Of a DNA stretch of 64,000 nucleotides, positions 27,601 to 30,504 are shown piece by piece. Position 1 is the first letter of the stretch. Every line of letters starts with the position of its first letter. The DNA comes from Escherichia coli (GTDB taxonomy: Bacteria; Pseudomonadota; Gammaproteobacteria; Enterobacterales; Enterobacteriaceae). The stretch is taken from NCBI RefSeq assembly GCF_002854065.1, contig NZ_CP024147.1; one strand, given 5' to 3'. Position numbers: made by a program.

Positions 27601-30504
27601 GGGTTTTGTGTGGTGTTCAGGATGTCATCTGTCATGCAGCCATGATGACAGAGGCGGGCGGGAACATCCTGATAAGAAGCTGCCCGTATTATGATTCTGG
27701 CACAGGAGGTTATTCAGTCCACCTCTGCAGGGGGCTGGCAGAGAGACGCAGCCAGTCAACGCCGGCGGTAAGCCAGGCGAACTGTTCCGCCGTGAGCGAC
27801 CAGGTGGTGTCGCCGTCGCGGGGCCAGCGGAAGGCGCCCTGGTGCAGGCGGCGGGTGCAGAGCCAGACGCCGTGGCGGTCCCACATCAGGAGTTTCATGC
27901 GGGTGCGTTTTTTCCCGGTGAAGAGGAAGGCTTCGCCTTCCCGGGGCGGATGCCCGGCGGCCTGAGTGGCGAGTCGCGTCAGGGAGTCGATGCCGGCGCG
28001 TATGTCAGCAGGCTCGCGGACGAGCCAGAGGGAATGAGGGCTCAGCACAGGTTAAGCTCCCGGATGATGGCGGCGATGCCGGCCGGAGAGGCGGTGACGC
28101 AGACGCACTGAAGTTTCAGGGTGGCAGTGTCACTGACGGAGAGGGTGACCGGCAGGATGGCTGGTCTGTTATCAGCCGGAGCGGGGCCACGGGCGTCGTC
28201 AGCGGAGAAGGCGCGGCAGAGATGCCAGAAAGTTTTGTTGTTGATGCCGTGTTGCCGGGCATACGCGGTCCGGGACATGCCGCTGACGCGCCAGGCGTCG
28301 TAGTGCTGGCGTCGCTGCGCCGGGGTCATTTTTTTGCCATCAGTTTTCTCTCTTTTGCATATAAAGGAAGAACCTGCAGAATGGCGTGGTTCACAACGGC
28401 CGGCAATGCGAGTTCACCGGATGCTTACCATTCAACGTCCTGAGTGCATGGAAGGTTTCATTATGGATACGGGCAAGCAGCTATCTTTCAACGGTGAAAA
28501 CACCGTTTTTTGTGCTTTTGGTTTGCGTGGGTGAACCGGTATGATAACCGTACCATAGTACTCTGCAGGGCCTGGTTACTGTCGTGGATGACAGGAACAT
28601 AGCGCTGCGCTTCTTAGTTTATCGGGGCTGAGCAGCTTCGGTACGTTGCTCAAGTAGGTCAGGCAGTGGCCGTGAGTATTTAACCATGTCATCATACCCT
28701 GACCTTCACACGCTTCAGCGTAGGTATAGTAAGATGCCCCCCCATGGCCACGGAAATTGCCACGCGTATCCCCGGCACAATACCAGAAAATGAAAGAAGC
28801 GGAGGGAGGATAGACTTGTTACGCCTTCTGCTCTACATAAAAATTTTCCGGAAGCTGTCAGAAAAGAACTAATGACCTTAGGTACATTCATGGAAACGGT
28901 AAAGATTCTCTTACATAACTATTAAATCGACGCTTTATTCTGACGATTATGCGGCGGAAAATCTCTATCGCGTTGCACTCACGTAAACAATTCTCCCTTG
29001 CCATGCTGGATATTGATTATCCTCAAGAAAATTAATAATCGTTATAGACATAATTCCGAGGGTAATACACAGAAAAATTTCTCTTCGATGATTTGTGAGC
29101 ATATTCTCATCAGTGCTTATGTTTTCCTCTATGGTGCCGAAGGATTTATTATTTTGTTTGTCGAAACAGAATTATCACACGCTAAAATCATTCTCGAAAA
29201 TCTACGTAACAAAATGGCTGGTTTGCGTATCCAAGCCTTAGTCAGTGAAAGGTTTTCGGTCACGGACAATATTGGCGTCGACGAATATGATTTTTATCCT
29301 GACTATAACCTATTGATAGAAAGGGAGGGCGTTTTATTACGCCAAAAGTCAGGATCGAAACCGGATAGACGTCTTTCTGCTACTGATGACAAACTGCTGA
29401 TTTTTCGTCATTGTCACGCGAAACCAGTAGATCCGAACCAAGTATGATATGATAATTCGTCAGATAACTAACGATAAAAGCGAGCGGGAGGCACATGTTA
29501 ATTCCAGAAATTAAACAGGAAAGGCTCTATCAAAAGATAGCGAATCTTATTATTAAGCTCATCAATGATAATGTCTTTCCGCCAGGTAGTTTTTTACCTC
29601 CAGAGCGTGAGCTGGCGAAACAACTGGGAGTTAGTCGTTCATCGCTGAGAGAAGCTCTTATTGTTCTTGAGATATCTGGCTGGATTATTATTCAGTCTGG
29701 TAATGGGATTATTGTCAGTGATAATAAACACTCTCCAGTCGATTACACTATCGAAGAAATTCTTTATGTCCGTGATTTAGTTGATAGTCATTGTGCCCGA
29801 CTTGCAGCACTGGCTAATAATGAAACAATAATTAATAAAATTGAGTTACTCCATTTCCGAATGGAAAATTCCATTCATGAAAATAATGTGGCTGAATTTT
29901 ATATGCTTGATAAGCAGTTTCATCTGACCATTTCTGAAGCCAGCCATAATAGGGTGTTGTTAGATATGTCACGGATGCTTTGGGAGCAGCGTGTCAATAT
30001 ACCTTATGCTGGGCTGGATAAACGTTCCGGCGATAAGAATGTACTTATCAAACTTAATCAACAGCATAAAGCAATTATTGAGGCGATTCGTGCAGGAAAT
30101 GCAGACAATGCCTTGCAACGGGCACTGCTACATTTGAAGTATGTGCGAGAAATAATTGGTTATTAACCTTTTCTGCGCTGAATAAATATACCTCCGGTAT
30201 AGCCGTAATGCCGATCAGTTAAGGATCAGTTGACCGATCCAGTGGCTGTGTAAGAATCCGGAAACGCTCACTCGTTTCCGGATTTTTTATGCACATGGGA
30301 CAGGCCCTTGATCTGGTATCCCGTTACGATTCTCTGCGTAACCCACTGACTTCTCTGGGAGATTACCTCGACCCCGAACTCATCTCTCGTTGCCTTGCCG
30401 AATCAGGTACTGTAACAGCAGGTATGCGAACGCTTTTGCCGTATCCGAGTGACGCGACAGTGTTTTCATCTGAGTCTGTATCCAGTCATACAGTGACTGC
30501 ATCA

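What the first reader, a model, noticed from the sequence alone, without database searches (positions are those of the whole stretch)
28930..29447. Degenerate, frameshifted GGDEF-domain remnant next to the IS66 insertion
The 149-aa ORF carries GAEGF where active diguanylate cyclases have GG(D/E)EF, followed by GGDEF-like helices. The upstream part of the domain (SLAMLDIDYPQEN) is in another frame and runs into a stop. Most likely a decaying c-di-GMP signalling gene.
Basis: partly seen in the sequence, partly recalled or inferred. Interest (0 to 1): 0.25.

Follow-up and report, generated by a model that had tools for sequence, protein, structure and literature searches.

The report
Dead remnant of DosC-like diguanylate cyclase
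This is the broken tail end of a horizontally acquired oxygen-sensor-type c-di-GMP synthase gene, left in an insertion-sequence-riddled E. coli genomic island; it is an ordinary pseudogene, not a working signalling gene.

Summary
Window 28894-29400 holds the last 169 codons, the GGDEF domain, of a gene whose intact form is a 467-aa globin-coupled diguanylate cyclase (Protoglobin + DosC_2nd + GGDEF, WP_050010088.1). That protein is 36% identical to K-12 DosC and is carried in an IS1-flanked module on E. coli plasmids and chromosomes.

The window copy has these defects:
- Codons 1-297, the sensor and middle domains, are gone.
- There is a CAA>TAA nonsense codon at 28916-18.
- A +1 insertion lies near 29020.
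- A 5-bp deletion lies after 29325.
- GGEEF has become GAEGF, and the RSSD inhibitory site has become LISA.
- 22 of 60 family-invariant residues are changed.

The frame-corrected translation scores 38.8 bits against Pfam GGDEF (cutoff 23.8). The ORFs as they stand score below the cutoff. dN/dS against the intact allele is 0.63, compared with 0.22 for the adjacent intact GntR regulator at the same dS. A 95%-identical second lineage shares the truncation, the stop codon and the AEGF motif but has different indels.

It missed the second frameshift, the nonsense codon, the DosC-type ancestry and the IS21 relic between the remnant and IS66. Verdict: an ordinary pseudogene of low interest.

The parts
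28894..29400 (+). Pseudogene remnant: codons ~298-467 plus the stop codon of a DosC-like globin-coupled diguanylate cyclase. Only the GGDEF domain survives, read across three frames.
   Evidence: blastn against intact L003 gives 90% identity from 28894. tblastn of the intact protein finds residues 299-340 at 28895-29020, 330-441 at 28995-29324 and 445-466 at 29329-29394, each in a different frame. Pfam GGDEF scores 38.8 bits after frame correction.
28916..28918 (+). Premature stop: CAA (Gln306 of the intact protein) changed to TAA, inside the conserved D-x-L-T-x-L-x-N-R-R start of the domain.
   Evidence: Codon-by-codon alignment. The same TAA is present in the independent lineage L005.
29019..29022 (+). 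+1 frameshift: a single-base insertion, GATTATCCTC against GATTA-CTTC in the intact gene.
   Evidence: The insertion is absent from L005, which instead has a 1-bp deletion about 40 bp downstream.
29106..29117 (+). Former RxxD inhibitory (I-) site: RSSD in all intact relatives, LISA here.
29133..29147 (+). Degenerate active-site motif GAEGF (ancestral GGEEF; changes G379A and E381G).
   Evidence: L005 has SAEGF.
29325..29326 (+). Site of a 5-bp deletion (second frameshift). It removes the Ala-Asp of the conserved K-A-D-x-A-L-Y-x-A-K helix.
   Evidence: The deletion is 4 bp in L005 and 6 bp in L006.
28998..29447 (+). The mechanical 149-aa ORF of the finding. Residues encoded after 29325 are out-of-frame read-through past the ancestral stop. 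RefSeq calls the inner 119-aa part (29088-29447) WP_001361993.1, 'hypothetical' or 'nucleotidyl cyclase domain-containing protein'.
   Evidence: Pfam gives 21.7 bits for the 149-aa ORF and 16.8 bits for the 119-aa CDS, both below the 23.8 cutoff.
28767..28893 (.). 127-bp orphan sequence at the 5' truncation junction; origin unknown.
   Evidence: It has no similarity to the intact module or to full-length IS21. It occurs only at this locus, in 157 of 5426 E. coli genomes. L005 shares it.
28429..28766 (-). Internal relic of an ISSso4-like IS21-family istA gene. Its other half lies at 25814-25903.
   Evidence: blastn against full IS21 in L009. PGAP annotates it as 'IS21 family transposase, frameshifted, incomplete'.
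25904..28428 (-). IS66-family element (tnpA, tnpB, and tnpC with an internal stop) inserted into the IS21 relic. It is flanked by the 8-bp direct repeat CATTCAAC.
   Evidence: Terminal inverted repeats GTAAGCATCCGGTGAACTCGCAT and the target duplication at 25896-25903 / 28429-28436. Annotation.
29495..30166 (+). Intact FadR/GntR-family regulator (223 aa, GntR HTH + FCD). It is the conserved downstream neighbour of the cyclase in the ancestral module.
   Evidence: Pfam. Synteny in L002-L005. dN/dS is 0.22 against the intact module. Homology to the module ends at 30186.
20146..22432 (+). MFS transporter (429 aa) and Zn-dependent alcohol dehydrogenase (341 aa) of the same ancestral module. Both are intact, but they are inverted and displaced ~6.5 kb from the GntR gene.
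   Evidence: blastn of L003 10286-12775 against window 22488-19987 gives 93.6% identity. ORF lengths equal those of the intact module.

Best explanation
Window 28894-29400 is a non-functional pseudogene. It is the 3' third (GGDEF domain) of a horizontally acquired paralogue of the oxygen-sensing diguanylate cyclase DosC/DgcO. The ancestral gene was a 467-codon globin-coupled sensor with Protoglobin, DosC_2nd middle and GGDEF domains. It sat in a low-GC module ordered LysE - cyclase - GntR/FadR regulator - Zn-ADH - MFS. In this island near tRNA-Arg(CCT), a rearrangement removed lysE and the first 297 codons of the cyclase. That event left a junction to 127 bp of orphan DNA and an IS21 relic, into which an IS66 element later inserted. 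After the gene was inactivated, or together with that event, it acquired a nonsense codon and lost its GGEEF catalytic motif and its RxxD inhibitory site. It then drifted, picking up lineage-specific indels and many replacements at invariant positions. Shown here: the homology, the lesions, the truncation, the relaxed constraint, the existence of intact copies, and the nesting of IS66 inside the IS21 relic. Inferred: the order of the other events, that no protein is made, and that the DNA persists only as a passenger next to the still-constrained GntR gene.
For: The frame-corrected translation hits Pfam GGDEF at 38.8 bits against a 23.8 cutoff; the uncorrected ORFs score 21.7 and 16.8 bits. 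Window 28894-30186 is ~90% identical to the intact gene plus GntR in L002 and L003. The intact protein WP_050010088.1 has Protoglobin, DosC_2nd and GGDEF domains. It aligns over its full length with K-12 DosC at 36% identity, E=4e-103, and matches the DosC structures 4zve, 4zva and 4zvc. tblastn finds residues 299-466 in three frames and no trace of residues 1-298 or of LysE anywhere in the window. The mapped lesions are Q306>TAA, a +1 insertion near 29020, a 5-bp deletion after 29325, GGEEF>GAEGF and RSSD>LISA. Of 60 columns invariant in 8 intact relatives, 22 are changed in the remnant, whereas intact members differ at 0-11. dN/dS is 0.63 with codon-position differences of 15/24/23, against 0.22 and 12/6/26 for the adjacent GntR gene, at equal dS of 0.19 and 0.18. 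Lineage L005, 95% identical, shares the junction, the TAA and the AEGF motif but has different indels. L006 has a 6-bp deletion instead of 5 bp. The downstream ORF therefore ends in three different frames in the three variants. The identical lesions occur in 158 complete genomes, which excludes sequencing error. No Shine-Dalgarno-like sequence precedes TTG 28998 or ATG 29088 (sequence).
Against: RefSeq/PGAP still calls a 119-aa CDS here rather than a pseudogene. The pairwise dN/dS of 0.63 is below 1; this is expected because half of the path is the constrained intact lineage, but it does not prove neutrality. The sequence is nearly invariant (>=99%) across 158 genomes. Clonal inheritance explains that most simply, but on its own it is also compatible with constraint. 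No expression data were available.
Confidence: 0.93

Rival explanations
1. The 119/149-aa ORF encodes a functional small degenerate-GGDEF protein, in the manner of enzymatically inactive GGDEF proteins that act as receptors or interaction partners. It might, for example, poison dimerisation of the intact plasmid-borne paralogue or of chromosomal DosC.
For: An uninterrupted ORF exists and PGAP annotates it as a CDS. The sequence is conserved at >=99% in 158 genomes. At least one strain, EF7-18-58, carries both the remnant and an intact copy.
Against: The ORF lacks the N-terminal ~40-70 residues of the domain fold and scores below the Pfam cutoff. Its C-terminal ~40 residues are out-of-frame read-through. 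The ORF's end differs in frame and length in L005 (93 aa) and L006 (103 aa). The RxxD site needed for c-di-GMP binding is gone. 22 of 60 invariant positions are changed. dN/dS is three times that of the neighbouring gene. There is no recognisable ribosome-binding site.
Confidence: 0.03
2. The DNA is retained because it now serves as promoter or 5' leader for the intact downstream GntR/FadR regulator. It would then be a dead gene that became regulatory sequence.
For: The GntR gene is intact and under purifying selection, dN/dS 0.22. Only 94 bp separate the ancestral cyclase stop from the GntR start, so the two genes may have been co-transcribed. Two weak sigma-70-like matches lie inside the remnant at 29161-29188 and 29263-29291.
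Against: Promoter-like matches are no more frequent than in shuffled sequence: 7 found against 4.7 +/- 2.2 expected. The remnant is no better conserved near its 3' end than elsewhere. This explanation is compatible with the pseudogene reading and is not a real alternative to it.
Confidence: 0.15
3. The frameshifts and the stop codon are sequencing or assembly artefacts, or are bypassed by programmed recoding, and the gene is really intact.
For: None beyond the fact that homopolymer runs (the GGG tract at 29323-29330) are error-prone.
Against: The same lesions occur in 158 independently sequenced complete genomes. The first 297 codons are physically absent. Recoding would need stop read-through plus two shifts at sites that differ between lineages.
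Confidence: 0.01

Closest known systems
E. coli WP_050010088.1, the 467-aa 'GGDEF domain-containing protein' of the IS1-flanked LysE-DGC-GntR-ADH-MFS module (for example plasmid pEF7-17-58_3 and the strain MLI110 chromosome)
   Same: The 3' 507 nt share 87.5% DNA identity and ~72% amino-acid identity over the surviving 168 codons. The downstream GntR/FadR neighbour, the 94-bp spacer and the position of the stop codon are the same.
   Different: The intact gene has all three domains, GGEEF, RSSD and no stops. The window copy lacks codons 1-297 and carries a nonsense codon, two frameshifts and 46 replacements. dS of 0.19 shows it is a diverged allele, not a recent derivative of the plasmid copy.
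DosC / DgcO (YddV) of E. coli K-12, the haem-globin oxygen-sensing diguanylate cyclase (PDB 4zva/4zvb globin, 4zvc/4zvd middle, 4zve-4zvh GGDEF)
   Same: The ancestral protein is collinear with DosC over all three domains: 36% identity overall, E=4e-103, and GGDEF-domain E=1.7e-47 to 4zve. Both share the RSSDYVFRYGG(D/E)EF block. The frame-corrected remnant still aligns to DosC residues 296-456 at 32% identity.
   Different: It is a distant paralogue at a different locus, not the dosCP operon. There is no adjacent DosP; instead it is linked to a GntR regulator, an MFS transporter and an ADH. The window copy is dead.
Chromosomal globin-coupled cyclases of Citrobacter (72-73% identity), Phytobacter/Kosakonia (65-67%), Dickeya (55%) and Pectobacterium (44%)
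   Same: They have the same three-domain architecture and are the nearest intact relatives outside Escherichia. All keep GGEEF, RSSD and the 60 invariant columns of the GGDEF region.
   Different: These are intact and apparently core chromosomal genes of their hosts. The E. coli copies are mobile, IS-flanked acquisitions.
Decayed or variable GGDEF/EAL genes of the E. coli pangenome
   Same: Stop codons, frameshifts and truncations in c-di-GMP turnover genes are common among E. coli isolates (PMC5635171). Plasmid-located DosC homologues about 35% identical to MG1655 DosC have been reported (bioRxiv 10.1101/2025.05.09.653004).
   Different: I found no paper describing this particular remnant. 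Povolotsky & Hengge 2016 and the 2015 nomenclature paper could not be read, so I could not check whether the intact paralogue already has a dgc name.

Membership tests
GGDEF domain (Pfam PF00990) | Profile match at or above the curated gathering score (23.8 bits) | tested here: met
   The frame-corrected translation scores 38.8 bits, E=1e-9, covering profile positions 9-144 of 161. As encoded, no single ORF passes: the 149-aa ORF scores 21.7 bits and the 119-aa PGAP CDS scores 16.8 bits. This shows homology (descent from the family), not a functional domain.
Active diguanylate cyclase | Intact GG(D/E)EF active-site motif | tested here: not met
   The motif is GAEGF at 29133-29147, with G379A and E381G relative to GGEEF in all 8 intact relatives.
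Active diguanylate cyclase | A complete catalytic domain in one reading frame with a usable start | tested here: not met
   The domain is spread over three frames with an in-frame TAA. Neither candidate start is preceded by a Shine-Dalgarno-like sequence.
Active diguanylate cyclase | Conserved substrate-binding residues (the Asp of the GH..GD segment, equivalent to PleD D344 by my own knowledge of the PleD structure; and the K-A-D...Y-x-A-K helix) | tested here: not met
   G349R, G353E, D354G and D346N are present, and Ala442-Asp443 are deleted. The equivalence to PleD numbering rests on my own knowledge and was not computed here.
c-di-GMP-binding degenerate GGDEF receptor | RxxD inhibitory/binding site five residues upstream of the GGDEF motif | tested here: not met
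   RSSD in all intact relatives has become LISA.
DosC-type globin-coupled sensor cyclase | N-terminal Protoglobin (haem sensor) domain | tested here: not met
   The domain is present in the intact homologue (PF11563, 39.7 bits). It is absent from the window: tblastn finds nothing for residues 1-298.
DosC-type globin-coupled sensor cyclase | DosC_2nd middle domain (PF21118) | tested here: not met
   The intact homologue scores 104.7 bits. The domain is absent from the window.
DosC-type globin-coupled sensor cyclase | Descent from a member, shown by orthologous sequence and conserved neighbourhood | tested here: met
   The window is ~90% identical in DNA to the 3' end of the intact three-domain gene and its GntR neighbour. 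The MFS and ADH genes of the same module are also in the window.
Pseudogene | Disabling lesions relative to intact homologues, plus relaxed selective constraint | tested here: met
   The lesions are a truncation, one nonsense codon and two frameshifts. dN/dS is 0.63 against 0.22 for the neighbouring gene at equal dS. 22 of 60 invariant positions are changed. Sister lineages carry different indels.

The most novel reading that the evidence does not exclude
The truncated, catalytically dead GGDEF fragment (29088-29447) might be translated and act as a small dominant-negative or decoy partner. It would bind the GGDEF domain of the intact plasmid-borne paralogue, which co-occurs with it in at least one strain, or of chromosomal DosC, and so damp oxygen-dependent c-di-GMP synthesis.
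Probability: 0.02. Interest if true: 0.45.

Novelty: new member of a known kind. Interest (0 to 1): 0.1.

Why it matters
The remnant itself matters little. It is one more decayed GGDEF gene in E. coli, a species in which such decay is well documented. There are two practical points. First, RefSeq lists this locus in about 158 complete genomes as a protein-coding 'hypothetical' or 'nucleotidyl cyclase domain-containing' gene, whereas it should be flagged as a pseudogene. Censuses of E. coli diguanylate cyclases should not count it. Second, tracing the remnant exposes its intact parent. That parent is a mobile, IS1-flanked DosC paralogue, most similar to Citrobacter globin-coupled cyclases, found on plasmids and chromosomes in 41 of 5426 complete genomes. 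It is a better subject for experimental work on horizontally transferred oxygen-responsive c-di-GMP signalling.

Tried and rejected
- I looked for a clean IS21 end at the truncation junction. No terminal inverted repeats were found in L005. Comparison with a full ISSso4-like copy showed that the IS21 piece is itself internally truncated and stops at 28766, not at the junction. 'IS21 insertion truncated the gene' therefore could not be upheld, and the event that made the junction is unknown.
- I searched for the origin of the 127-bp orphan (28767-28893). There is no match outside this locus in E. coli genomes, nor in the intact module or in IS21.
- I searched the literature for a name for the intact paralogue (dgcY, accession numbers, globin-coupled sensor plus Citrobacter). 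Nothing relevant was held, and Povolotsky & Hengge 2016 and Hengge et al. 2015 were not readable.
- The promoter scan gave only chance-level matches.
- The Rfam scan found no RNA element in or next to the remnant.
- Structure prediction was not run. With three frames, a stop codon and a missing N-terminal half, a model would add nothing.

Full report
**Observation.** The window is E. coli chromosomal DNA. The 1.1 kb around the finding is 100% identical to 158 of 5426 complete E. coli genomes, always on the chromosome. The 149-aa ORF at 28998-29447 exists and contains YGAEGF (29133-29147). The peptide ...SLAMLDIDYPQEN lies upstream in another frame and ends in TAATAA at 29030-29035. The 149-aa ORF alone scores 21.7 bits against Pfam GGDEF, below the 23.8-bit cutoff.

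**What the remnant derives from.** A protein search with the frame-corrected sequence found a 70%-identical fragment with an intact GGEEF motif (P0003). Its contig (L002) places it directly after a Protoglobin + DosC_2nd ORF and before a GntR/FCD gene. In complete genomes the corresponding intact gene is WP_050010088.1, 467 aa, present in 41 of 5426 genomes on both plasmids and chromosomes. It sits in an IS1-flanked module ordered LysE - cyclase - FadR/GntR - Zn-ADH - MFS.

- Pfam finds Protoglobin (39.7 bits), DosC_2nd (104.7 bits) and GGDEF (156.7 bits) in this protein.
- It aligns end to end with K-12 DosC at 36% identity, E=4e-103.
- It hits the three DosC domain structures 4zva/b, 4zvc and 4zve.
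- Its closest relatives outside Escherichia are chromosomal cyclases of Citrobacter (72-73%), then Phytobacter/Kosakonia (65-67%), Dickeya (55%) and Pectobacterium (44%).

The module is low in GC (38-41%) compared with the surrounding IS elements (50-66%). A 2025 preprint notes plasmid-located DosC homologues about 35% identical to MG1655 DosC (10.1101/2025.05.09.653004), which fits this gene.

**Anatomy of the remnant.** Window 28894-30186 aligns with the intact module at ~90% identity. Homology begins at codon 298/299. tblastn finds residues 299-340, 330-441 and 445-466 in three different frames, and finds nothing of residues 1-298 or of LysE anywhere in the 64 kb. The lesions relative to the intact gene are as follows:

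- Loss of 893 nt at the 5' end.
- CAA>TAA at 28916-18 (Gln306).
- A 1-bp insertion near 29020.
- A 5-bp deletion after 29325, which removes the Ala-Asp of the KADxALYxAK helix.
- 46 amino-acid replacements in 168 comparable codons.

The ancestral TGA stop is at 29398-29400. The last ~40 residues of the 149-aa ORF are therefore out-of-frame read-through into the spacer. GGEEF has become GAEGF and the RSSD inhibitory site has become LISA. The GH..GD substrate-binding segment carries G349R, G353E and D354G. In an alignment with eight intact relatives, from the E. coli plasmid copy out to K-12 DosC, 60 columns are invariant. The remnant differs at 22 of them, while each intact member differs from the others' invariant set at 0-11 positions.

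**Evidence for decay rather than a divergent functional gene.**

- Against the intact allele, the remnant has dN/dS = 0.63 with differences spread evenly over codon positions (15/24/23). The adjacent GntR gene has dN/dS = 0.22 with a third-position bias (12/6/26). The two have essentially the same dS, 0.19 and 0.18. The two segments have therefore diverged for the same time but under different constraint.
- A second lineage of the degenerate locus (L005, 94.9% identical) shares the 5' junction, the TAA and the AEGF motif. It lacks the +1 insertion, has a different 1-bp deletion, and has a 4-bp rather than 5-bp deletion. A third variant (L006) has a 6-bp deletion. The predicted ORFs in the three variants therefore end in three different frames, at 149/119, 93 and 103 aa. 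This is the pattern expected of shared inactivation followed by independent drift.
- Neither candidate start codon has a Shine-Dalgarno-like sequence.
- Sequencing error is excluded by the 158 concordant genomes.

**Surroundings.** The IS66-family element spans 25904-28428, with inverted repeats GTAAGCATCCGGTGAACTCGCAT and an 8-bp target duplication CATTCAAC. It sits inside a relic of an ISSso4-like IS21 istA gene, at 25814-25903 and 28429-28766. Between that relic and the remnant lie 127 bp (28767-28893) of unknown origin, found nowhere else in the E. coli collection. The event that truncated the gene is therefore not identified. IS66 is a later arrival and is not the direct cause.

Downstream, the GntR/FadR regulator (29495-30166) is intact, and module homology stops at 30186 against IS fragments. 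The MFS and Zn-ADH genes of the module survive intact at 20146-22432, but inverted and next to an IS1. The island lies downstream of tRNA-Arg(CCT) at 2593-2667.

**Mechanism.** The most likely account is that there is no mechanism to describe, because the sequence is a passenger pseudogene. I give a 0.93 probability that it makes no functional protein. A secondary, compatible possibility (0.15) is that part of it now provides upstream sequence for GntR expression, but the promoter scan is at chance level. A functional mini-protein is very unlikely (0.03), and artefact or recoding is excluded.

**Comparison and novelty.** The remnant descends from the GGDEF family and from a DosC-type globin-coupled cyclase, but it fails every functional membership criterion that was tested. 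Decay of GGDEF/EAL genes by stop codons and frameshifts is well documented in E. coli (PMC5635171). This is a new instance of a known kind and its interest is low. Two by-products have some use. The RefSeq CDS WP_001361993.1 should be annotated as a pseudogene. The intact mobile DosC paralogue is worth experimental attention. I could not check whether that paralogue already has a systematic name, because the key papers were not held.

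Noticed in passing
window 25904-28428 (target duplication at 25896-25903 and 28429-28436): A complete-length IS66-family element with 23-bp terminal inverted repeats and an 8-bp target duplication CATTCAAC. It is inserted inside a relic of an ISSso4-like IS21 istA gene. Its own tnpC is split by an internal stop into ORFs of 309 and 174 aa.
   Followed up: yes
window 28767-28893: A 127-bp orphan sequence at the truncation junction of the cyclase remnant. It has no similarity to the intact module or to IS21, and in 5426 E. coli genomes it occurs only at this locus. Its origin is unexplained.
   Followed up: partly
window 19220-22488: An IS1 copy (19220-19989) is followed by intact MFS transporter (20146-21435) and Zn-alcohol dehydrogenase (21407-22432) genes of the same ancestral module. 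They are inverted relative to the GntR gene and separated from it by group II intron, IS and IS66 sequences. Only the cyclase and LysE genes of the module have been lost.
   Followed up: partly
L003 7348-12616; L004 (plasmid pEF7-17-58_3): The intact IS1-flanked module LysE - globin-coupled cyclase (467 aa) - GntR/FadR - Zn-ADH - MFS occurs in 41 of 5426 complete E. coli genomes, with matches on both plasmids and chromosomes. In L003 a truncated EAL phosphodiesterase gene lies at its far end. Strain EF7-18-58 carries this intact copy on a plasmid and the dead remnant on its chromosome.
   Followed up: partly
L002 2040-2100: The Logan assembly copy of the otherwise intact allele is split into 332-aa and 133-aa ORFs by a small frameshift near codon 320. 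This is either an independent inactivation or an assembly error.
   Followed up: no
window 30703-30825: A strong Rfam hit to the isrC Hfq-binding sRNA family (150 bits against a 39-bit gathering score). It overlaps the 5' end of an IS3-family orfA (30671-31018), which suggests that this Rfam family largely models IS sequence.
   Followed up: no
window 22600-22751 and 24171-24850: Group II intron domain D1-D4 RNA (Rfam RF02001, 89 bits), together with fragmented reverse-transcriptase/maturase ORFs. This is another decayed mobile element between the two halves of the module.
   Followed up: no
window 2593-2667: tRNA-Arg (anticodon CCT). The IS-rich island containing the remnant lies downstream of it. 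In related strains the csc sucrose genes flank the same region (L001), consistent with an argW-associated genomic island.
   Followed up: no
window 32961-36458: An intact 1165-aa autotransporter with an outer-membrane beta-barrel domain, in a low-GC (35-46%) segment just downstream of the IS cluster.
   Followed up: no
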